This document shows, in pieces, positions 15,279-64,000 of a stretch of 64,000 nt of DNA. The notes beneath the pieces are model-generated. The model saw only the letters and a program-made list of their open reading frames with translations, ran no database searches and was not told the DNA's origin. Source of the DNA: a virus (lineage: Duplodnaviria > Caudoviricetes); the IMG/VR virus record IMGVR_UViG_3300033073_000489, positions 18,781-82,780 of that record; one strand, written 5' to 3'. The stretch's first letter is position 1; each line of letters starts with the position of its first letter. The position numbers and the translations under genes were made by a program.

Positions 15279-15377
15279 TGGTGCAGGCGGTAGGATTCGA
15301 ACCTACAAAGGCGCTCTAAGAGCTAGCCCCGTTCCCTCCCCGAAGGGAGGAGGTCTACCAATTCCACTCACGTCTGC
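15279..15377 (-). ncRNA. tRNA-like RNA without a canonical anticodon loop
   Basis: GCAGACG/CGCCUGC-ACCA acceptor, Leu-like D loop, GUAGG-UUCGAAU-CCUAC T arm; the anticodon arm is CUCCC-UUCG-GGGAG. Confidence 0.75.
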
Positions 15378-34081: not shown

Positions 34082-34103
34082 AATAGGACCCGGAGGTCCT
34101 ATT
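34082..34103. terminator. Bidirectional terminator
   Basis: AATAGGACC-CGGA-GGTCCTATT at the island's right border. Confidence 0.8.
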
Positions 34104-34566
34104 ATTCTGCATACCAAATTTCTGTAAAACCTTCGTCTTCGGTTGGCATTTCAAACCCAGCAATCATACTAGCAATAACGTGCTCTGGAATTTCTTTCCC
34201 AGGACGACTCCACAGTCTACGAATCAACTCCTTATGCTCTGGTGTCTTGAACACGACGGCAATATGCTCGTAGTTTGGCAGAGTGTTAAACTTACGCTTA
34301 CGGCTAGCAATAGTTGTTGAAGTTTGATCCCAGATTACATCTAAGTTGTTTGCTTGACAGACCAACGCTTGGTTTGCCATTAACCGAACAGCGATTGGCA
34401 TGTATTCAGTAAACACTTCAGAGTAAGTCTTACCTTGCTCCTTAGCGTATGCTTCTACAAAGTTGTCAGTAGACACTACAGGAATATCCTTAGCCCAGTC
34501 TTGGTTGTTAATCCAAGTAGACTTTCCAGATCCTGGAACACCGACTAATTGATAACACTTTGGCAT
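34102..34566 (-). CDS. P-loop kinase, polynucleotide-kinase-like (AAA_33)
   Basis: GVPGSGKST, WDQT...RK. Confidence 0.8.
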   Translation of the reverse strand: MPKCYQLVGVPGSGKSTWINNQDWAKDIPVVSTDNFVEAYAKEQGKTYSEVFTEYMPIAVRLMANQALVCQANNLDVIWDQTSTTIASRKRKFNTLPNYEHIAVVFKTPEHKELIRRLWSRPGKEIPEHVIASMIAGFEMPTEDEGFTEIWYAE

Positions 34567-34739
34567 TTTTGTAACCTTTCTATTTCATCAGCTGCCTCTT
34601 CCAGCAGGTCTGCTATACGATCTCTTGCACCTTCTTCAACACTCTTACGGCCAGGTATCTGTCGTCTAATCTCCGCCCGTTTGCGCAAACGGAAGACTAG
34701 ACTTTGTTCAGATACTGGCAAGTGACTTTCATCTTTCAT
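34545..34739 (-). CDS. Small hypothetical protein
   Basis: Start MKDES; LVFRLRKRAEIRRQI...DLLEEAADEI. Confidence 0.65.
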   Translation of the reverse strand: MKDESHLPVSEQSLVFRLRKRAEIRRQIPGRKSVEEGARDRIADLLEEAADEIERLQKCQSVIN

Positions 34740-35635
34740 GCTAATTGTTCCCTTACCCATGCTAGACGAGCTTGCTCGTCCATTGCTGTGTATTCTACTA
34801 TGTTAGCACGGATTGCGTCAACCAGTGGATAGTATTCTTCATCTAGATTGTGCTTAATGTCCTTGTTCAAGTCTACTAACTTATCTGTGCGTGGATTGCG
34901 AGCAACCCACTTTGAAGTTAGGTAGTATGGTGACTTGATCTTAGCACTCACACCTTCGTCAGTATAGAATACATAACCTTCATGCTTACATTCCTTAGCC
35001 AACTGTTCCAAACGTGCCATGTTAGTTGTAACACTTTCTGCCCAGAAACAGTTTAGGCTACGAGCAAAGTCCATTAGGATGTATGGGTCATGTAAGATCT
35101 TAGAGCCGAACACGTTTTCGCGCCAGCCTAACAAATACATACCCGACTTTTCTGGAATGATATGTGGATCACTTGGATGCACACATTCAAACATAAAAGT
35201 CACTCCCTTGCACTCTGCGTTGCCTAGTGCCATTTGCCAGTCAGCCCAGCACATATGAGTTAGCATCATTTCTTTTGCCATTGCTACATATGGGCTGTCT
35301 GTGCTACCAGTAGTAGACACTAGGATGTCTCCGTTGTGCCAAGTCATAGCAACCATGAACCCGTTTATCTTACGGAACGCTGTAACCTTAGTATCGCCGG
35401 ATAGCTTTGGAGCTTCCTTTTCAATACCGTAGTTATAGATCTTTGTGAATGGATATGTAACTAGGTTAAAATCCTTGTCCACAATAGACCCACGACATTC
35501 TGCAATGTAGTCGTTCCACAAGTTGTCGTAGAATACCTTCTTCTTATACTTTAATACAAAGAGCCCGTCACTACATTCCTTCATGTTAACCAATCCAGAA
35601 GTAGCAACGTAGTTCTTTAACTCATCCTTAAACAT
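34736..35635 (-). CDS. RNA ligase (T4 Rnl1-like)
   Basis: ECRG, PFTKIYNY, motif I RKINGFM, FECVHP, HEGYV, KIKSPYY. Confidence 0.85.
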   Translation of the reverse strand: MFKDELKNYVATSGLVNMKECSDGLFVLKYKKKVFYDNLWNDYIAECRGSIVDKDFNLVTYPFTKIYNYGIEKEAPKLSGDTKVTAFRKINGFMVAMTWHNGDILVSTTGSTDSPYVAMAKEMMLTHMCWADWQMALGNAECKGVTFMFECVHPSDPHIIPEKSGMYLLGWRENVFGSKILHDPYILMDFARSLNCFWAESVTTNMARLEQLAKECKHEGYVFYTDEGVSAKIKSPYYLTSKWVARNPRTDKLVDLNKDIKHNLDEEYYPLVDAIRANIVEYTAMDEQARLAWVREQLA

Positions 35636-36176
35636 GATGACCCTTAATTTCTTTGTCCTTGATCATACGTATAGCACGATCCAAGCCAATTACAATTTCT
35701 CCAGTTGAGTCCATACCCACATCTAATGCGCGATACTTTTCCAACCCGCTTACACCACCGTGCAAGTGTCCATGAAAATGCAAAGCTCCTCTGTGCATTT
35801 GATCCCACTCAGCGATTGGATAGTGGAACATAACAATCTTGTGACCGTCATACGTCATATCCAAATACTTGTGAACTTCCTTAAATGCATTACGGAAAGT
35901 TACATCCATCAATGTCTTGCGATCGTGGTTACCTTCAATCAAAATCTTTGTGCCGTTCAAACGATTAATCATTCTACCAGCATCGCTACCTGACATGAAC
36001 GCTACATCACCTAAGATGTAAACTGTGTCTTCGGGTTGAACCTTGTGGTTCCATTCCTCAACCATAGCATTATTCATGTAGGTAACATCGTCATTAAAAC
36101 GTGCTCGCGTCTGTGGGCAGAACTTCATAATGTTCTTATGCCCAAAGTGCAAGTCACTTGTAATCCATGTTTTCAT
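35628..36176 (-). CDS. Calcineurin-like phosphoesterase
   Basis: SDLHFGH, LGD, GNHD, HYP, HGHLH, DVG. Confidence 0.9.
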   Translation of the reverse strand: MKTWITSDLHFGHKNIMKFCPQTRARFNDDVTYMNNAMVEEWNHKVQPEDTVYILGDVAFMSGSDAGRMINRLNGTKILIEGNHDRKTLMDVTFRNAFKEVHKYLDMTYDGHKIVMFHYPIAEWDQMHRGALHFHGHLHGGVSGLEKYRALDVGMDSTGEIVIGLDRAIRMIKDKEIKGHHV

Positions 36177-36374
36177 TTATTCACCTACAAATTCTTTTAC
36201 CCATTCAAAATGAGTTTCGCTGGCCTTAACCCACTTAAACTGCTCTCGACGTCTGTTGATCTTGTCGAAGTCAAAGCAAATAAAGATCCAGCCCTTTTCT
36301 TCTGAGAACTGCACAGATTCAGCAACCCGAACAATCTGCACAATCCTGTCCTTAAACTTTGCTACGATCATCAT
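36177..36374 (-). CDS. Hypothetical protein
   Basis: 65-aa ORF in the operon. Confidence 0.6.
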   Translation of the reverse strand: MMIVAKFKDRIVQIVRVAESVQFSEEKGWIFICFDFDKINRRREQFKWVKASETHFEWVKEFVGE

Positions 36375-36383
36375 ACTGGCTCC

Positions 36384-36665
36384 TTACATGGACCAGTAAG
36401 TCTCCGAAGCTGGATTGCAACACCAAGGAGTGTCGCGATCAATTTGGACATCTTTACCGGTCATCAAATTCTTAACTGTTTTCATTGTTGGGAAATATTC
36501 AAAACGATAGCCCAACTTTGCAGGATACAAACTAAACAATTCGGCGCATTCACGCTTCATGCTCGCTTCATCGCGGGCTTGCCAAACTGTAGTAGAAACA
36601 AGACGCTCACCTCGCTTAGTGCGCTTGTCCAATTTGTAGATATACAATGTCCAATCTTGTTTCAT
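36384..36665 (-). CDS. Hypothetical phage protein
   Basis: YKLDKRTKRGER...TPWCCNPASETYWSM. Confidence 0.7.
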   Translation of the reverse strand: MKQDWTLYIYKLDKRTKRGERLVSTTVWQARDEASMKRECAELFSLYPAKLGYRFEYFPTMKTVKNLMTGKDVQIDRDTPWCCNPASETYWSM

Positions 36666-36696
36666 TTCGCTCTCCTATGTGTTTCAGTATATGTAT

Positions 36697-36725
36697 ATTA
36701 TATGCTCAAACGGCTAAGGCGTCAA
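36697..36725 (-). promoter_or_regulatory. sigma70-type promoter of the RNA-repair operon
   Basis: TTGACG-N17-TATAAT. Confidence 0.8.
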
Positions 36726-36754
36726 CCAGAGAGTTGTTGTATTAATACAACACT

Positions 36755-36946
36755 TTACCAATCTTCGACACCGCTAATCTCAATGTTAAACGAGCCCTGT
36801 AGCCCGCCAGCATCAAGTGGAAATGTCATCGTAGTGACGCTTCCAATTCCACTGCTAGAATCTTGGTCTAGTTCAAAAATTTCTACTTCTGGAAACTTAT
36901 CCAAAACTTCTTGAATTTTGTCGATGTCTTTTCTAGTTAAGTGCAT
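36755..36946 (-). CDS. Hypothetical protein
   Basis: 63 aa, DSSSGIGS. Confidence 0.65.
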   Translation of the reverse strand: MHLTRKDIDKIQEVLDKFPEVEIFELDQDSSSGIGSVTTMTFPLDAGGLQGSFNIEISGVEDW

Positions 36947-37413
36947 CAGTCTATACTCCTAAATGTGCGCCAATCATCAAGATTGGGCTTTTCGTTTTCG
37001 TCGTATGTCCAGCCCAATGCCTTCATCATACGATGCTTGACTAACAAGTTAGGGCTACGGAAACGACCAGTATCCTGGAAGCCCATCATGACACCAACTT
37101 CACAAACTGCACCCGAACGGCAGATACCTGCAAAGCAATGAACAACAACGTTCATGTGGTTGTCCTTTGCGTGTTGCAACAGGCGAACTAGCTCGTCGGC
37201 TTGTTCTTGACTGCAACGCATTTCTTCGTCGTCTACGTGATCATTCTTTTCTACATCCAAGAATTCAAAGTTATGAATTTCCTTGAACTTGTGCGCAGGA
37301 GTAGGACGCCAGCTTGCAGGATCAGTAATACTGATCAGCATACTGTTCTCCCCTGCTTCGTGATGGAACCGCTTTGGAATGTCATCAGCGGCGACATTTT
37401 CAATCCATGGCAT
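36946..37413 (-). CDS. Cys-based protein/tyrosine phosphatase-like protein
   Basis: VHCFAGICRS (CX5R). Confidence 0.8.
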   Translation of the reverse strand: MPWIENVAADDIPKRFHHEAGENSMLISITDPASWRPTPAHKFKEIHNFEFLDVEKNDHVDDEEMRCSQEQADELVRLLQHAKDNHMNVVVHCFAGICRSGAVCEVGVMMGFQDTGRFRSPNLLVKHRMMKALGWTYDENEKPNLDDWRTFRSID

Positions 37414-37508: not shown

Positions 37509-38918
37509 TTAGCTAAGGTCGTAGCGTGGGACCATTACAGTCTTAAGCATGATACCTTCTGGAGTGAATTGGTCCAGATCAGCGGACAGCAAAGCTGTCA
37601 TGATGCTTGGGCTAAATCCGCTAACTAGAGCGGCTCCAGACTTGTCTGACTTAACAGGAACGTTACCGCTACTGTTCAAGTTCCAGAACACAACTTGTGG
37701 TGCGGTATAACCCGCATCAGCATACTTGCGTTCGATCATTTCCATTGCGCTGTCGTCGAAACGAGCGCATTGGTTGAACTGCATGTCTGACAAGATTAGC
37801 AACATCTTTGGCATGTCGCTAGCTGGGACGTTACCCTTAACTGCAACGCTTAGGATCTTGTCCATAGCGGCATGCAAGTTAGTGCTCATTTCCCAGTTGC
37901 TGGTCGACATTTGTTCGACCTTTTGAACAATGTTACCCTTTAGAGTAACAAGTTGTGGCTTGCTAGAGAAAGTCAAGAATGTGTCCTTGAACACGCCCTT
38001 GTTCTTGTCTGCAAGATACAAACCTAGTCCAACCGCTACATCCAAACAACGAACAGTCGAACCTGGAACAGATGTTGTCATCGAACCAGATACGTCAACT
38101 AGAGGCAGGATACTTGCGTCACCTACGTAGTTAGGCAGAGCGTCCCATTGTGCGATCACATGGTCTGTTTCTGTCTTGTTCAGCTTGGTGTAGCTGTGTG
38201 CAATGCCCTTCAACACATCATGTGGGTAGATTGCTGAGGCGTTAACCTTAACAGTCTTATCACCACTTGTCAACTTGGCCACATACTCTGCGAACGCAGG
38301 TGTGTGACGGTTGAATGCCTTCTTGTAGTTGCGAGCAGCCACAGAAGGAACGTGTGAGAAGTTGATGTTATCCCAGTCGTTGGCACACATTTGTGTTTCA
38401 ACAACCTTGGTAAGTGCCACAAGGCTCTTACGATATTGCTTTGGAGTCATTCCAAAGAACGCACGGATTTCCTGTGCGATTTGACCCTTACGAGGAGTCC
38501 ACTTTGCAGCCAAGCCATTACGAGCACGAAGTGCATCGCCTAGCATAGTGTAAGCGGCGCTCTTAAGAGCAGGAGTAGAGAAGACAAAGATGTCGTCCCA
38601 ACGTCCCACTTCAGGCGCCTTCTTTAGCAAAGCCAAAGCGGCGTCTGGGTCACGCTTTTCCAAGTGAACAAGAATGTCACGGAAAAGTTGACGTTCACCC
38701 GCACCACCACGGACATCACGTGCCCATTGTGCGATGCGTAGAGCAACGTCTTGGTTTTCAACATAAGCGGCTGTAAAGTCGCCTACGATGTTCTTACCAC
38801 GGCTTGCGCCAATGTTGTAAAACAGGTCAACTGTAGCCTTGGCTGTTGACTTACGTGCCTTCATACCGTTAGCGGTGCGGGCTTCTTGATTTGCTACTGC
38901 GTTTACAAATGCGTTCAT
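37509..38918 (-). CDS. DUF2828 / TROVE(Ro60)-like protein with vWA domain
   Basis: RDVRGGAGER, WDD, AAKWTPR, vWA MIDAS DVSGSM, ILSDMQF, VFWNL, VSGFS; Ro60 relationship is inferred. Confidence 0.8.
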   Translation of the reverse strand: MNAFVNAVANQEARTANGMKARKSTAKATVDLFYNIGASRGKNIVGDFTAAYVENQDVALRIAQWARDVRGGAGERQLFRDILVHLEKRDPDAALALLKKAPEVGRWDDIFVFSTPALKSAAYTMLGDALRARNGLAAKWTPRKGQIAQEIRAFFGMTPKQYRKSLVALTKVVETQMCANDWDNINFSHVPSVAARNYKKAFNRHTPAFAEYVAKLTSGDKTVKVNASAIYPHDVLKGIAHSYTKLNKTETDHVIAQWDALPNYVGDASILPLVDVSGSMTTSVPGSTVRCLDVAVGLGLYLADKNKGVFKDTFLTFSSKPQLVTLKGNIVQKVEQMSTSNWEMSTNLHAAMDKILSVAVKGNVPASDMPKMLLILSDMQFNQCARFDDSAMEMIERKYADAGYTAPQVVFWNLNSSGNVPVKSDKSGAALVSGFSPSIMTALLSADLDQFTPEGIMLKTVMVPRYDLS

Positions 38919-40552: not shown

Positions 40553-40651
40553 TGGTCCCTCTGGCAGGACTCGAACCTGCACACTCAGGCTTATCTGGCC
40601 TGTGCTTTGGCGAGGTATAAGCTCGCGTCTTTACCATTAAGCTACAGAGGG
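40553..40651 (-). tRNA. tRNA-Ile(UAU) with 29-nt extra arm
   Basis: GCGAG-CUUAUAC-CUCGC; extra arm AGGC-CAGAUAA-GCCU. Confidence 0.75.
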
Positions 40652-45683: not shown

Positions 45684-45761
45684 TGGTGCCCCATCTCTGA
45701 TTCGAACAGAGAGAACTTCTCCTTTTGAGAGAGACGACTTTACCAATTTGTCCAATGGGGC
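45684..45761 (-). tRNA. tRNA-Leu(CAA), short extra arm
   Basis: Loop CUCAAAA; only a 6-nt variable region. Confidence 0.82.
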
Positions 45762-45768
45762 ATTATAG

Positions 45769-45929
45769 GTTTTCGAAGTGCCCAACTATCCTCCTGGGAA
45801 GACTCGCTGGATTGTCTCGAACAGGCAAGTTTAAACAAACCGGCTTCAGTCATACTGTAGTGTCAACACAGTCAACCCCACTGTGCCTAGACTGGCAGGG
45901 ACTCAAACCCATCGTCTAACTTCGAAACT
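45769..45929 (-). ncRNA. Candidate ~160-nt structured RNA with T-arm-like element
   Basis: Closing stem GUUUCGAAGU/ACUUCGAAAAC; GGG-UUUGAGU-CCC; GCACAGU/ACUGUGU. Confidence 0.55.
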
Positions 45930-46018
45930 TGGAGGAGGGATAGTAGAATCGAACTCTAACCGCTTTCGCAGTCCATCTGTTTTCAAGACAGTGCTGGGCC
46001 CAGCCCAGATAACCCTCC
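45930..46018 (-). tRNA. Atypical tRNA-Ser(UGA)
   Basis: Loop CUUGAAA, long extra arm, CUGGG/CCCAG D stem, bulged T stem, U73. Confidence 0.65.
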
Positions 46019-46109
46019 ATAATAAAAACGCACTCGTCACTTTTCACGACGGTGGTGTGCAGTCCTTACAACCTAACTTATAGCTAGGTCAAGTGCGTTT
46101 TTATTATGG
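46017..46109 (-). ncRNA. Structured spacer pairing the upstream tRNA CCA with the downstream tRNA 5' GG
   Basis: CCAUAAUAAAAACGCACU / AGUGCGUUUUUAUUAUGG, perfect 18 bp. Confidence 0.7.
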
Positions 46110-46227
46110 CCCCGCCCCGTGGATTCGAACCACGATCTCGTCCTTGACATGGAATTGTGTATTATGCTGACTGTATCCTTAACAGGATAACCTTTTAATA
46201 CGTGTGCTACCATTACACCAAGGCGGG
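46107..46227 (-). tRNA. 121-nt tRNA-like gene with expanded anticodon domain
   Basis: Normal acceptor, D and T arms, G73-CCA; insert carries UAUCC-UGUUAA-GGAUA and UCC-AUGUCAA-GGA. Confidence 0.7.
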
Positions 46228-46235
46228 TTAAATTG

Positions 46236-46310
46236 TGGTCTCGCCTGCAGGAATCGAACCCACATTCACAGGGTAGAAGCCTATTGTATTTTCCATTATA
46301 CGAAAGCGAG
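46236..46310 (-). tRNA. tRNA-Arg(UCU)
   Basis: Loop CUUCUAC. Confidence 0.88.
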
Positions 46311-46317
46311 AATTGAA

Positions 46318-46512
46318 TTTGTAAGCATTGCGTCCCTCATATCGCAAACATTTTCCCTTGTAATAAAGCCGGCAGGGTCAAGATACGTCATTACAGTTAC
46401 TCATCCAACGCTTCTATATTTGTGCTAGGGTATTGCGCCCCTCGTTGTTTACCTAATCTTTGGCTGGCCAGCTACTCGAGTTGGTGACTTTCACTTACTG
46501 ACACTTACAAAA
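46318..46512 (-). ncRNA. Candidate ~195-nt structured RNA
   Basis: Closing stem UUUGUAAG/CUUACAAA; AGGG-GCGCAAUA-CCCU, UGUAAUGA/UUAUUACA, UUGCG/CGCAA. Confidence 0.55.
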
Positions 46513-46514
46513 CT

Positions 46515-46589
46515 TGGCGCCCGCATATGGAATCGAACCACAATCCCCGGCTTCGTAGACCAGTGTATTATCCATTATACTATGCGGGC
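46515..46589 (-). tRNA. tRNA-Arg(ACG)
   Basis: Loop CUACGAA. Confidence 0.9.
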
Positions 46590-46597
46590 AAATTAAA

Positions 46598-46656
46598 CAG
46601 GATGCATTTACTTTTTTCCGAATAAAAGAAATGTAATGTTTGCTGTTAGCATCCTA
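46598..46656 (-). ncRNA. CAGCAA-scaffold RNA copy F (short)
   Basis: AGGAUGC-UAA-CAGCAA...GCAUCCUG. Confidence 0.75.
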
Positions 46657-48247: not shown

Positions 48248-48371
48248 CAGGATAGAATTTAACATAGTGCTACCGTTACACCAAACACCGCCTAAGCGAT
48301 GCCGCGGAGTCGAACCGCTCCCTTACTTTTCAAGAGTAGTAGTTGTTATTAATTTTGCTGTTACTATCCTA
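48248..48371 (-). ncRNA. CAGCAA-scaffold RNA copy H, YrlA-like permuted tRNA mimic
   Basis: AGGAUAG/CUAUCCU encloses UACU-CUUGAAA-AGUA, T arm GCGG-UUCGACU-CCGC, closed acceptor GGCAUCGC-UUAG-GCGGUGUU and D arm GUG-UAACGGUAG-CAC. Confidence 0.85.
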
Positions 48372-49709: not shown

Positions 49710-50330
49710 TTAAATCCTGCCCGGGTCGGTGAGCGACAGTTGTTCAAACCCCCACGACCGTTCGTTACAGCCGTTGCATTGATTACACCTTCCAATCTCC
49801 TGTGCCGAACAACTATGAGTGATGTAAAACAACGACTCTAGTTGTAACTGAGAACAAAGATCAACAATATGACTTTTATTTAATTTTGAAAGTGGTGCTT
49901 TAAATTTATCAGTCTCGGTGTAAGGGATTGGTTGCCAACCTACCATATGTTGCGGTAATTGTTGAATTAAACCAGTATATGCTCGATCAAATTGTAAGCG
50001 CCATGCATCATGAACACCAGATTTGACTTGTTGTTCTTCGGGCAAGGTGTTATTGCCCACAATTATCGGGTCAATGTATGGAAGGTCAAACATTGATCGA
50101 ACGTGGGCAATAACTGGTTTAGCAAAATGCTTAGACCCTTCTTTTCGCAAAACAGTAAGAGGAACAATGTCGTGAACTCCGCCTACCCGTCTATTTTCTT
50201 CTAATAACAAGTAATATAAAACTGCACTATCTAAGCCACCGCTTATAAAAATTGCAATCTTTAACGGGTCAAATGGCAACTCTAGTTCAAACGTTCTCCG
50301 ATCTGTTTCGCAACCACAAGCCAGTATCAT
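49710..50330 (-). CDS. QueC-like PP-loop ATPase
   Basis: ISGGLDS, APL..LNK, THSC...CNQCNGC. Confidence 0.7.
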   Translation of the reverse strand: MILACGCETDRRTFELELPFDPLKIAIFISGGLDSAVLYYLLLEENRRVGGVHDIVPLTVLRKEGSKHFAKPVIAHVRSMFDLPYIDPIIVGNNTLPEEQQVKSGVHDAWRLQFDRAYTGLIQQLPQHMVGWQPIPYTETDKFKAPLSKLNKSHIVDLCSQLQLESLFYITHSCSAQEIGRCNQCNGCNERSWGFEQLSLTDPGRI

Positions 50331-63764: not shown

Positions 63765-63982
63765 TGCTATTTTGGGTGACAAGGTATAACTACCTCGCAA
63801 GTGCAGTTTCTTAGGCTGCTAGTTCGAAACGCTCAGCGTTTGCAGCCTTAGCTACGAATGCTGGCACTTCGAAGTGCTTGAATGTAGATGCTGTTGCATT
63901 TACTAGTTTTGCTTGATTTACGGTCATCGCCTACCGTGTTGCCGTCTTCAATATCTACCCCTGTCGAAACCATGGCAGGCCC
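63765..63982 (-). ncRNA. ssrA: tmRNA, 5'/coding piece (probably permuted two-piece gene)
   Basis: 5' GGGCCUGCCAUGGUUUCGACAGGG; UAAAU before resume GCA; tag ORF 63897-63811 ATASTFKHFEVPAFVAKAANAERFELAA. Confidence 0.85.
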
Positions 63983-64000
63983 ATTATAAAACACACTAGA

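What the first reader, a model, noticed from the sequence alone, without database searches (positions are those of the whole stretch)
46107..46227. 121-nt tRNA with a branched anticodon domain showing Asn-like (GUU) and Asp-like (GUC) loops
Seen: perfect acceptor, D and T arms with G73-CCA. Between D and T lie GUAUUA/UAAUAC enclosing UAUCC-UGUUAA-GGAUA, then UCC-AUGUCAA-GGA. Established: Asp and Asn tRNAs both use G73 and both are queuosine (GUN) tRNAs, the class cut by colicin E5-type nucleases. Inference: a two-bait decoy, or a tRNA with a protein-spliced intron (an RNA ligase is encoded nearby).
Basis: partly seen in the sequence, partly recalled or inferred. Interest (0 to 1): 0.72.

Follow-up and report, generated by a model that had tools for sequence, protein, structure and literature searches.

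The report
tRNA-shaped RNA carrying Ro60-partner handle
A giant phage encodes an RNA with the full shape and CCA end of a tRNA, but its anticodon stem carries the same conserved "handle" that marks the phage's small RNAs encoded beside a Ro60-like protein. It is therefore most likely a non-decoding partner RNA that displays a swappable anticodon-like loop, and not an Asp/Asn double decoy or a broken tRNA.

Summary
The minus strand 46227..46107 is a 121-nt tRNA cloverleaf (7-bp acceptor, G73-CCA, D and T arms) with a 47-nt insert between positions 28 and 29 of the anticodon stem.

The insert is a capped, circularly permuted copy of the AGGAU-N5-CAGCA "handle" found in the window's eight Y-RNA-like genes. 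Those genes lie beside a protein I confirmed as Ro60-shaped.

At least 63 distinct relatives occur in phage contigs, plus unannotated copies in the cultured phages Vibrio nt-1 and Synechococcus BUCT-ZZ01. All six helices covary, including the two pairs that close across the insert.

The "Asn-like" loop is only a GNNA-type cap on the handle and is not conserved. The "Asp-like" loop is a real anticodon-loop look-alike, but its triplet is hypervariable: bodies at least 90% identical differ in loop in 25 of 47 pairs, against 2 of 211 for ordinary tRNAs. It usually has A32 (1% in ordinary tRNAs) and is sometimes 8 nt long or absent.

Best reading: a tRNA-shaped partner RNA of the Ro60-like protein, probably a bait or tether in the conflict over anticodon nucleases.

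This scan reached the same reading earlier on other genomes (e1-5809754, e1-5809770). I found no paper describing it.

The parts
46107..46227 (-). The whole 121-nt handle-bearing tRNA-like gene. It lies 8 nt downstream of tRNA-Arg(UCU) inside the minus-strand tRNA operon.
   Evidence: CM R1 scores it 147.5 bits. It is not called by ARAGORN or by Rfam RF00005.
46203..46227 (-). 5' tRNA body: acceptor 5' strand CCCGCCU, U8 G9, D arm GUGU-AAUGGUA-GCAC, A26.
   Evidence: Acceptor and D-stem pairs covary in 63 relatives. U8-A14 is present in 61 of 61, and the 15-48 pair is A-U or G-C in 54 of 61.
46201..46202 (-). C27 and G28, the outer two pairs of the anticodon stem. They pair with G43 and C42 (46139-46140) across the insert.
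   Evidence: 27:43 is CG 39, AU 11, UA 10; 28:42 is UA 31, GC 18, CG 11; the four types CU/AG, CG/CG, AC/GU and UU/AA.
46154..46200 (-). The 47-nt insert, i.e. the capped and circularly permuted Ro60-partner 'handle'. It consists of helix 2 (G28-UAUUA with UAAUAC), an A-rich/GGU strand, helix 1, the cap, N4-CAGCA, and an A/U-rich linker.
   Evidence: Helix 2 covaries, but only in the clade with G28.
46174..46189 (-). Helix 1 with its cap: UAUCC-UGUUAA-GGAUA, which can also be written (U)AUCCU-GUUA-AGGAU(A).
   Evidence: Helix 1 covaries: U-A, C-G and G-C at the outer pair, and AUUCU/AGAAU, AUACU/AGUAU, AAUCA/UGAUU, AGUCU/AGACU in distant members.
46165..46179 (-). The motif AGGAU-ACAGU-CAGCA, shared with the eight Y-RNA-like genes of the window.
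   Evidence: 10 matches in the window against 0.27 expected, 9 of them on the minus strand between 38.9 and 48.4 kb.
46141..46153 (-). Anticodon-like hairpin UCC-AUGUCAA-GGA (A32 U33 G34 U35 C36 A37 A38).
   Evidence: Frame UCC/GGA occurs in 41 of 63. A38 is 53 of 53, A37 49 of 53, U33 47 of 53, A32 39 of 53. The triplet is hypervariable.
46107..46140 (-). 3' tRNA body: C42 G43, variable region AGAU, T arm CGUGG-UUCGAAU-CCACG, acceptor 3' strand GGGCGGG, G73, CCA.
   Evidence: CCA is encoded in 52 of 63 relatives.
48248..48371 (-). Y-RNA-like 'copy H'. It has the same parts in the other circular permutation: handle ends free, acceptor capped. It is context, not part of the gene.
   Evidence: The permuted element aligns to it with score 96, against 32 +/- 8 for shuffles (z 7.6) and 23 for the unpermuted element. 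The D arm is 16 of 17 identical.
37509..38918 (-). Gene for the Ro60-like protein (DUF2828 + DUF7788), the presumed binding partner of the handle.
   Evidence: Pfam. AlphaFold model with pLDDT 91. The top 13 PDB matches are all Ro60/TROVE, with TM 0.37-0.67 (0.54 or more for the best five). The motif is linked to the gene in 80 protein-anchored loci.
34102..37413 (-). RNA-repair genes downstream on the same strand: DSP-type phosphatase, phosphoesterase, Rnl1-type RNA ligase, polynucleotide-kinase-like P-loop protein.

Best explanation
The gene makes a tRNA-shaped, non-decoding partner RNA of the phage's Ro60-like protein. It is transcribed within the tRNA operon, and its ends are probably matured like those of a tRNA, since it has a 7-bp acceptor, G73 and an encoded CCA. 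It folds into the tRNA L-shape. A 47-nt arm branches from its anticodon stem between positions 28 and 29. That arm is the same AUCCU/AGGAU-N5-CAGCA handle that closes the phage's free-standing Y-RNA-like RNAs, here capped by a tetraloop. The RNA is thus the acceptor-open circular permutation of a tRNA-mimicking Y RNA. The Ro60-like ring is inferred to bind the handle. The rest of the RNA then offers a tRNA body and a small hairpin in which a constant frame (UCC-A-U-NNN-A-A-GGA) displays a triplet, GUC in this phage. Because the triplet changes freely between near-identical bodies, I infer that it is a specificity module aimed at something that reads anticodon loops. The most likely targets are host anticodon nucleases, with the RNA acting as bait or competitor. 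The adjoining Rnl1 ligase, kinase and phosphatase set may then reseal it or the real tRNAs. What is shown: the structure, the homology of the insert to the handle, family-wide covariation, the linkage of the handle to the Ro60-like gene, and the variability of the triplet. What is inferred: protein binding, absence of decoding, and the bait or tether role.
For: (1) The insert carries the handle motif. The motif occurs 10 times in the window against 0.27 expected, and the other copies on this strand are the eight Y-like RNAs. (2) After circular permutation the element aligns to Y-like copy H at z 7.6. (3) There are 63 distinct relatives. All six helices covary, including 27:43 and 28:42 across the insert, and the tRNA tertiary pairs are kept. 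(4) The neighbouring DUF2828 protein is Ro60-shaped. In 80 loci chosen by the protein alone, the motif occurs 175 times on the gene's strand and 0 times on the other, with 88 copies within 500 nt upstream of the gene. All 10 of 10 large records holding a handle-tRNA encode the protein. (5) Evidence against decoding. Bodies at least 90% identical differ in loop in 25 of 47 pairs, against 2 of 211 (both synonymous) for ordinary tRNAs of the same loci. A32 occurs in 39 of 53 against 11 of 1103. Nine of 63 loops are 8 nt long. Members with Ser triplets have no long variable arm. An ordinary tRNA with the same anticodon sits in the same locus in 24 of 40 cases, and twice in this window. (6) Some members have no anticodon hairpin at all (L111, L072, L168 copies 1 and 4). 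(7) An Rnl1-type ligase, a kinase and two phosphatases follow the Ro60-like gene on the same strand. (8) Precedent: M. smegmatis YrlA is cut by RNase P and receives CCA (PMC4201824).
Against: No expression, binding or charging data exist; everything rests on sequence comparison. The handle resembles no known Ro60-binding site: the YrlA motif GNCGAA is absent and Rfam YrlA scores only 14 bits. Removing the insert would leave a perfect 74-nt tRNA-Asp-like molecule with G73 and GUC, which is what an intron would look like. The loop keeps U33, A37 and A38 as real anticodon loops do. The family was collected with patterns taken from the handle, so conservation of AUCCU/AGGAU/CAGC within it is partly built in; the protein-anchored sample and the CM hits in nt-1, BUCT-ZZ01 and L168 are free of that bias. 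Counts of pairs of sequences are not phylogenetically independent. The bait or decoy function has no direct support.
Confidence: 0.62

Rival explanations
1. It is a precursor of a decoding tRNA-Asp(GUC). The 47-nt insert is a protein-spliced intron, cut out by an unknown endonuclease, and the halves are joined by the nearby Rnl1-type ligase with help from the kinase and phosphatases. The released handle hairpin might itself be a small Ro60-partner RNA.
For: Excision between positions 28 and 29 restores an uninterrupted 5-bp anticodon stem CGUCC/GGACG and a 74-nt tRNA with G73, G34-U35-C36, U33 and A37. The pairs 27:43 and 28:42 covary across the insert. A ligase, a kinase and phosphatases are encoded about 9 kb downstream on the same strand.
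Against: No tRNA-splicing endonuclease domain is found in this record or in five complete genomes with such genes. I see no bulge-helix-bulge at the junctions by inspection. Members in which the handle replaces the loop or the whole anticodon arm cannot yield a tRNA. Copy H uses the same parts with a capped acceptor, so that RNA is a final product. The spliced products would have A32 (1% in real tRNAs), 8-nt loops in 14%, Ser triplets without a long arm, and triplets that change on identical bodies. Canonical Asp tRNAs are already present twice.
Confidence: 0.1
2. It is a working, chargeable tRNA-Asp that keeps the extra arm permanently. The arm, with or without bound protein, might shield the anticodon stem from host nucleases, or mark the tRNA for repair.
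For: The RNA has a complete cloverleaf, tertiary pairs, G73-CCA, a GUC triplet, U33 and A37. Phage tRNAs that evade anticodon nucleases through loop changes are documented (PMC10264068, PMC11555353; titles and abstracts seen).
Against: The triplet changes to non-synonymous ones on identical bodies, e.g. Thr/Ser and Asp/8-nt loop. A32 is nearly absent from ordinary tRNAs. Ser-type members lack the arm that bacterial SerRS needs (established knowledge). A 47-nt arm, possibly carrying a ~53-kDa protein, in the middle of the anticodon stem is hard to fit into the ribosomal decoding sites (inference). It is redundant with two ordinary Asp tRNAs.
Confidence: 0.1
3. It is a two-bait decoy: one RNA presenting both an Asn (GUU) and an Asp (GUC) anticodon loop to GUN-specific nucleases of the colicin E5 type.
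For: Both loops contain a U-G-U stretch. GUN triplets are enriched in the anticodon-like hairpin of the family (19 of 53 against 164 of 1118).
Against: The 'Asn' loop has 6 nt, or 4 nt if U-A closes it. It follows U-GNNA-A in 49 of 63 relatives, reads GUU in only 16 of 63, and belongs to the handle that is also found at the ends of RNAs without any tRNA part.
Confidence: 0.03
4. It is a decaying tRNA pseudogene that was hit by a random insertion.
For: tRNA finders do not call it.
Against: There are 63 distinct relatives with compensatory changes in every helix and a conserved insert at the same position. Members are present in cultured phages of Vibrio and Synechococcus.
Confidence: 0.01

Closest known systems
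YrlA-type bacterial and phage Y RNAs bound by Ro60/Rsr (Rfam RF02553; Chen et al. 2014, PMC4201824), especially M. smegmatis YrlA, which is cut by RNase P and receives CCA
   Same: Both are small RNAs encoded next to a Ro60-type protein that join a protein-binding helix to a tRNA-like module with T arm, D arm and acceptor. In M. smegmatis the acceptor is opened by RNase P and ends in CCA. Both are linked to RNA-repair genes.
   Different: Here the RNA ends lie at the acceptor, as in a true tRNA, and the protein-binding helix is closed by a cap; this is the opposite permutation, in a single piece. An anticodon-like hairpin with a variable triplet is kept. The handle sequence is AUCCU/AGGAU-N5-CAGCA rather than GNCGAA. 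The protein belongs to Pfam DUF2828/DUF7788, not TROVE. The Rfam model does not match (14 bits against a cut-off of 69).
The same phage's free-standing Y-RNA-like genes, e.g. copy H at 48248-48371, and the handle-bearing tRNAs noted by this scan in other genomes (e1-5809754, e1-5809770)
   Same: They share the handle, the D arm and the order of parts around the circle, and lie in the same operon.
   Different: Copy H has free handle ends and a capped acceptor, so it cannot carry CCA. The present RNA has tRNA ends.
Archaeal tRNA genes with introns at non-canonical positions, and split or permuted tRNA genes
   Same: An insert interrupts the anticodon stem away from position 37/38, and circular permutation occurs among relatives.
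   Different: There is no bulge-helix-bulge and no splicing endonuclease. The hosts are bacteria. The insert is a conserved protein-binding module shared with RNAs that are not tRNAs. Some members lack any anticodon loop.
tmRNA, including the two-piece permuted form (one lies at 63811-64000 of this window)
   Same: A tRNA-like acceptor/T-arm domain with CCA is joined to a foreign functional domain where the anticodon arm would be, and permuted gene forms exist.
   Different: There is no mRNA-like reading frame and no pseudoknots. The D arm and an anticodon-like hairpin are kept. The partner is a Ro60-like protein, not SmpB.
Phage tRNAs that evade host anticodon nucleases (PMC10264068; PMC11555353) and the T4 Pnkp/Rnl1 repair of PrrC-cut tRNA-Lys
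   Same: The setting is the same: large phage tRNA clusters, altered anticodon loops, and an Rnl1-type ligase with end-healing enzymes nearby.
   Different: Those are decoding tRNAs that replace cut host tRNAs. This RNA carries a protein handle, and its features argue against decoding.

Membership tests
Canonical tRNA (Rfam RF00005 / ARAGORN) | Detected by tRNA models | tested here: not met
   There is no RF00005 match, even at E<=10, in 45700-46600, and no ARAGORN call.
Canonical tRNA (Rfam RF00005 / ARAGORN) | 7-bp acceptor, D arm, T arm with UUCGAAU, U8-A14, 15-48 pair, discriminator + CCA | tested here: met
Canonical tRNA (Rfam RF00005 / ARAGORN) | Uninterrupted 5-bp anticodon stem and a 7-nt loop with pyrimidine 32 | tested here: not met
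   A 47-nt insert lies after position 28, and position 32 is A. A32 occurs in 1% of 1103 ordinary tRNAs.
Canonical tRNA (Rfam RF00005 / ARAGORN) | Anticodon tied to the identity of the body | tested here: not met
   25 of 47 near-identical bodies carry different loops, against 2 of 211 for ordinary tRNAs.
Canonical tRNA (Rfam RF00005 / ARAGORN) | Aminoacylation and use on the ribosome | not testable with these tools
   This needs acid-gel or ribosome-fraction experiments.
YrlA (Rfam RF02553) | Match to the covariance model at or above the gathering score | tested here: not met
   14.2 bits against a cut-off of 69, with E 9.6, and the match covers only part of the element.
YrlA (Rfam RF02553) | GNCGAA(N0-1)G motif at the Ro60-binding helix (PMC4201824) | tested here: not met
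   The motif is absent from the 121 nt by inspection. The conserved motif here is AGGAU-N5-CAGCA.
YrlA (Rfam RF02553) | tRNA-like module with T and D arms, encoded near a Ro60-type gene on the same strand | tested here: met
   The gene lies 7.2 kb upstream of the Ro60-like gene on the same strand. The handle motif is tightly linked to that gene in 80 loci.
YrlA (Rfam RF02553) | Bound by Ro60 in vivo | not testable with these tools
   This needs immunoprecipitation or gel-shift experiments.
Phage 'AGGAU-N5-CAGCA handle' RNAs (partner RNAs of the DUF2828 Ro60-like protein; defined in this scan, not in the literature searched) | AUCCU/AGGAU helix followed five bases later by CAGCA(A), on the strand of the Ro60-like gene | tested here: met
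Phage 'AGGAU-N5-CAGCA handle' RNAs (partner RNAs of the DUF2828 Ro60-like protein; defined in this scan, not in the literature searched) | Co-occurrence with the DUF2828/DUF7788 protein | tested here: met
   10 of 10 large records encode the protein. No sample of comparable phages lacking the handle was tested.
tRNA with archaeal/eukaryal-type spliced intron | Bulge-helix-bulge at the exon-intron junctions | tested here: not met
   By inspection of the covariation-supported structure there are no two 3-nt bulges spaced by a 4-bp helix.
tRNA with archaeal/eukaryal-type spliced intron | A splicing endonuclease available | tested here: not met
   PF01974 is absent from this record and from five complete phage genomes with such genes. 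Host genomes are unknown.
tRNA with group I intron | Self-splicing intron of about 200 nt or more in the anticodon loop | tested here: not met
   The insert is 47 nt, sits in the stem, and has no Rfam intron match.

The most novel reading that the evidence does not exclude
The hairpin UCC-AU-NNN-AA-GGA is a programmable display cassette. Giant phages would load a Ro60-like ring with tRNA-shaped RNAs whose triplet they swap to match the anticodon-specific nucleases or toxins of their current hosts. The particle would trap or sense the nuclease and pass cut RNA to the adjoining Rnl1/kinase/phosphatase repair enzymes. This would be an RNA-based counter-defence that can be retargeted, and a first function for the very widespread DUF2828 Ro60-like proteins, which occur in 706 cultured phage records.
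Probability: 0.3. Interest if true: 0.88.

Novelty: new variant of a known kind. Interest (0 to 1): 0.72.

Why it matters
Ro60 and its Y RNAs are conserved from bacteria to humans, yet what the tRNA-like part of bacterial Y RNAs does is still unclear.

These phage RNAs push the tRNA mimicry to its limit. They have genuine tRNA ends with CCA, a full L-shape and an anticodon-like loop, with the protein handle grafted into the anticodon stem. The one part that changes quickly is the triplet, which gives a concrete and testable clue to what the RNP recognises.

The protein family occurs in 706 cultured phage records, including phages of Escherichia, Salmonella, Vibrio, Listeria, Staphylococcus and Mycobacterium, and is annotated only as 'RNA-binding protein' or 'hypothetical'. 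The RNAs are unannotated even in the classic Vibrio phage nt-1. Experiments are therefore possible in easy laboratory systems such as V. natriegens and S. elongatus PCC 7942.

There is also a practical point for annotation. tRNA finders miss these genes, and anyone who does spot one could mistake it for an intron-bearing tRNA or a pseudogene.

Tried and rejected
- **Phage DNA search:** blastn of the region against 50,697 phage records found only a neighbouring ordinary tRNA in Ralstonia phage RsoM2USA. DNA similarity search was too insensitive, whereas patterns and a covariance model worked.
- **Loose pattern scan:** the first loose scan of viral contigs was mostly chance matches and had to be filtered for a T loop.
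- **Cellular genomes:** the pattern scan of 185,579 prokaryote genomes returned 120 rows, none a true member.
- **Protein structure:** the single-sequence AlphaFold model of the DUF2828 protein was useless (pLDDT 41). Sequence searches against the PDB gave only marginal Ro60 hits (E about 0.09-0.4). The model built with an alignment settled the question.
it is real and covaries, but only in the roughly 18 members with G28. Elsewhere the two linkers show no consistent pairing (mean z -0.6).
- **RNAalifold:** run on its own, it did not draw the two pairs 27:43 and 28:42. Their support comes from covariation counts.
- **Frequency near the Ro60-like gene:** only 4 of 80 loci hold a handle-tRNA within 6 kb. 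That range would also miss this window's copy, which lies 7.2 kb away, so no frequency can be stated.
- **Duplicate of the phage's own tRNA-Asp:** rejected, because the bodies are unrelated.
- **Literature:** searches for DUF2828, phage Y RNAs, YrlA in phages, and anticodon-nuclease decoys found no description of such RNAs.
Full report
**1. The observation**

The window is part of an 82.8-kb fragment of a giant phage, with an estimated completeness of 23%. It holds 43 tRNA genes called by ARAGORN, nearly all on the minus strand between 39.6 and 48.9 kb.

The flagged stretch, read on the minus strand from 46227 to 46107, is 121 nt long. It starts 8 nt after the CCA of tRNA-Arg(UCU).

- acceptor CCCGCCU/GGGCGGG (7 bp), then G73 and CCA;
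- D arm GUGU-AAUGGUA-GCAC;
- T arm CGUGG-UUCGAAU-CCACG;
- between them GUAUUA...UAAUAC, UAUCC-UGUUAA-GGAUA and UCC-AUGUCAA-GGA.

The minimum-energy fold gives the same arms. ARAGORN and the Rfam tRNA model both miss the gene.

The molecule is therefore a normal cloverleaf whose 5-bp anticodon stem CG|UCC / GGA|CG is interrupted after position 28 by 47 nt (46200-46154). Without the insert it would be a 74-nt tRNA.

**2. What the insert is**

I searched for AGRAU-N5-CAGCA and found 10 matches against 0.27 expected. Nine are on the minus strand between 38.9 and 48.4 kb, and one of them lies inside the insert at 46165-46179.

Reading the eight RNAs shows their common frame. The 5' end is AGGAUnn, followed by (N)CAGCAA. 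The 3' end is nnAUCCU-G, which pairs with the 5' end.

The insert holds the same pieces in permuted order. The 3'-end strand (U)AUCCU-G comes first, a short cap follows, and then comes AGGAU(A)-CAGU-CAGCA. In other words, the terminal stem of the Y-like RNAs is closed by a loop, and the tRNA body sits where their variable interior would be.

I tested this directly. I rotated the element so that it starts at AGGAU and aligned it to Y-like 'copy H' (48248-48371). Copy H contains an anticodon-like hairpin, a T arm, a capped acceptor and a D arm. The score is 96, against 32 +/- 8 for shuffles (maximum 63, z 7.6) and 23 for the unrotated element. The two D arms are identical at 16 of 17 positions. 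The two RNAs are circular permutations of one design.

**3. Relatives**

A 20-mer from the insert occurs in 10 viral contigs, always inside a tRNA-like gene, but with different acceptor, D and T stems. Degenerate patterns and a covariance model built from nine members brought the family to 63 distinct sequences.

On their alignment 97.8% of cells are paired, against 73% in shuffles and 38-49% when partners are slid. Twenty-two of 26 pairs show changes on both sides.

The two pairs that close across the insert covary clearly. Pair 27:43 is C-G 39, A-U 11 and U-A 10. Pair 28:42 is U-A 31, G-C 18 and C-G 11. Together they fall into four Watson-Crick types. RNAalifold, run on its own, recovers the acceptor, D arm, helix 1, the small hairpin and the T arm, but not these two isolated pairs.

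The tRNA tertiary pairs are kept: U8-A14 in 61 of 61, and 15-48 as A-U or G-C in 54 of 61. CCA is encoded in 52 of 63, as in 1060 of 1118 ordinary tRNAs of the same loci.

However, it exists only in the clade with G28, about 18 of 59 members.

In more distant members helix 1 itself covaries: AUUCU/AGAAU, AUACU/AGUAU, AAUCA/UGAUU, AGUCU/AGACU.

The pattern scan of prokaryote genomes gave no true member among its 120 rows.

**4. The two loops**

*The 'Asn-like' loop.* It is the cap of helix 1. It follows U-GNNA-A in 49 of 63 members, reads UGUUAA in only 13, and has GUU in 16. It is a tetraloop-type cap, not an anticodon mimic.

*The 'Asp-like' loop.* It does look like an anticodon loop: U33 in 47 of 53, A37 in 49 of 53, A38 in 53 of 53. 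In four respects, however, it does not behave like the loop of a decoding tRNA.

- *The triplet varies on a constant body.* There are 35 distinct loops and 19 different triplets: GUC, GUU, GAC, UAC, CAC, UCU, UCG, GCU, UGA, CAU, GAU, UAU, UGU, UCC, UGG and others. Bodies that are 100% identical carry UGU in one contig and UGA in another, or GUC and an 8-nt loop ACUCUAAA. Among pairs with at least 90% identical bodies, 25 of 47 differ in loop. For ordinary tRNAs of the same loci the figure is 2 of 211, and both of those changes are synonymous. These pairs are not phylogenetically independent, but the contrast is large.
- *Position 32 is unusual.* It is A in 39 of 53, against 11 of 1103 ordinary tRNAs. 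The inner stem is UCC/GGA in 41 of 63, against 37 of 1103. The hairpin is thus a constant frame around a variable triplet.
- *Some loops cannot decode.* Nine loops have 8 nt. Members with Ser triplets have a short variable region, although bacterial SerRS depends on the long arm (established knowledge).
- *The RNA is redundant.* This window has two ordinary tRNA-Asp(GUC) genes, unrelated in body to the element. In 24 of 40 loci with at least 10 tRNAs, an ordinary tRNA with the same anticodon is present. That group includes all six complete genomes examined.

Some members have no such hairpin at all. In L111 and L072 the handle replaces the anticodon arm. In the five-gene tandem array of L168, copies 1 and 4 carry the handle arm on an intact 5-bp stem in place of the loop.

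**5. The protein partner and the neighbourhood**

The gene at 37509-38918, on the same strand, has Pfam domains DUF2828 and DUF7788. Four Y-like RNAs lie directly upstream of it.

A single-sequence model of the protein was useless. With 66 diverse homologues the model reaches pLDDT 91. Its 13 best PDB matches are all Ro60/TROVE proteins, including the Thermus phage Ro60 (E from 1.5e-7 to 1.9e-5). TM-scores are 0.54-0.67 for the best five and fall to 0.37 for the last of the thirteen.

I then took 80 loci chosen only by this protein. In them the handle motif occurs 175 times on the gene's strand and 0 times on the other, and the reversed control pattern occurs 0 and 2 times. Eighty-eight copies lie within 500 nt upstream of the gene, and 52 of 65 loci have one within 1 kb. 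This is the same kind of linkage by which bacterial Y RNAs were found (PMC4201824).

All 10 large records holding a handle-tRNA encode the protein.

Downstream of the gene, on the same strand, lie four RNA-repair genes:

- a DSP-type phosphatase;
- a phosphoesterase;
- an Rnl1-type RNA ligase (PHROG 562);
- a polynucleotide-kinase-like protein.

This is the T4-type tool set that reseals anticodon-loop breaks (established knowledge for T4 Pnkp/Rnl1 against PrrC).

**6. Mechanism**

*Shown:* the architecture, its conservation, the homology of the insert to the handle, the linkage of the handle to a Ro60-shaped protein, and the free variation of the triplet.

*Inferred:*

- the RNA is matured like a tRNA;
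- the Ro60-like protein binds the handle;
- the RNA does not decode;
- the variable triplet in a constant frame is aimed at something that reads anticodon loops.

Given the repair genes next door and the known diversity of tRNA-cutting defences (PMC10264068, PMC11555353), host anticodon nucleases are the most likely target. The RNA would act as bait or competitor, or as a tether that brings the Ro60-like ring and the repair enzymes to that conflict.

GUN triplets are over-represented: 19 of 53 against 164 of 1118 (p about 3e-4), or 14 of 44 after collapsing duplicates (p about 0.005). The sample is biased towards the window's own clade, however.

**7. Rivals**

*Intron.* This is the serious rival, because excision would restore a perfect stem. 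Several findings count against it:

- members exist that could never yield a tRNA;
- the capped-acceptor permutation is a final product;
- the would-be products are oddly non-canonical;
- there is no bulge-helix-bulge and no splicing endonuclease.

*Decoding tRNA with a permanent arm.* This is contradicted by the triplet switching and by A32.

*Random insertion or pseudogene.* This is excluded by covariation.

**8. Comparison with what is known**

The closest known thing is YrlA. M. smegmatis YrlA is cut by RNase P in its capped acceptor and receives CCA. That produces in two pieces what this gene encodes in one.

Membership in the Rfam YrlA family fails. The score is 14 bits against a cut-off of 69, and the GNCGAA motif is absent. 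The RNA therefore works like a YrlA but is not a member of that family.

The 2021 survey of jumbo phages mentions only that some encode a TROVE protein with 'a tRNA-like partner' in cellular organisms (PMC7824862). I found no paper on DUF2828 in phages or on such RNAs.

This scan reached the same reading on two other genomes (e1-5809754, e1-5809770). I did not look at their DNA, but I tested the claim independently here.

**9. Cultured systems**

The protein family occurs in 706 cultured phage records. The covariance model finds unannotated members in two of the five cultured phages scanned:

- three in Vibrio phage nt-1, in stretches with no annotated feature;
- two in Synechococcus phage BUCT-ZZ01, directly 3' of its Ro60-like gene.

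**10. Verdict**

The thing itself is a new variant of tRNA-mimicking Ro60-partner RNA, with an unusual and testable feature: the swappable triplet.

Noticed in passing
window 45934-46018 (-): A tRNA with a selenocysteine-type fold (Rfam tRNA-Sec 45.3 bits, just under the cut-off of 47), but with loop CUUGAAA, i.e. anticodon UGA (Ser) instead of UCA. ARAGORN does not call it.
   Followed up: no
window 40556-40651 (-): A 96-nt tRNA (Rfam tRNA 56.8 bits) with anticodon loop CUUAUAC (UAU) and a variable arm of about 25 nt, an odd combination. ARAGORN does not call it.
   Followed up: no
window 15279-15377 (-): A 99-nt tRNA-Arg(UCG) with a long variable arm, standing alone 24 kb from the tRNA cluster.
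   Followed up: no
window 46010-46112 (-): The spacer after the element folds very strongly (-39 kcal/mol, z -4.9). An 18-bp stem begins exactly at the element's CCA and ends in GG, the first bases of the next tRNA-like gene, so the CCA end is sequestered in the precursor.
   Followed up: partly
L168:270-941 (IMGVR_UViG_3300033696_000004): Five handle-bearing tRNA-like genes in tandem in one phage, with handle helices AGUCU/AGACU, AUCCU/AGGAU and AAUCU/AGAUU. In two of them the handle arm replaces the anticodon loop on an intact 5-bp stem.
   Followed up: partly
NC_021529.2 99441-99556, 101471-101594, 101868-101990 (L402, L403, L405); ON615601.1 111201-111447 (L401, L404): Cultured Vibrio phage nt-1 and Synechococcus phage BUCT-ZZ01 carry handle-bearing tRNA-like genes. 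No tRNA is annotated at any of them in the stretches I inspected. In BUCT-ZZ01 they lie directly 3' of the Ro60-like gene.
   Followed up: partly
L375:4646-4773, L366:881-1007, L370:367-493, L184:9153-9280: A sub-family with acceptor GGAGAUG/CAUCUCC-A-CCA, handle variant CUGCAA, and loops CUGUAAA (GUA, Tyr-type) or CUGUGAA (GUG, His-type). With the many GUC and GUU members this makes all four queuosine-type triplets present in the family.
   Followed up: no
window 63811-64000 (-): A permuted (two-piece type) tmRNA gene, cut off by the window end (Rfam RF04321, 53.9 bits).
   Followed up: no
window 49710-50330 (-): A QueC-like gene (7-deazaguanine pathway) just upstream of the tRNA operon. It may be relevant because a third of the display triplets are GUN, the queuosine class.
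   Followed up: no
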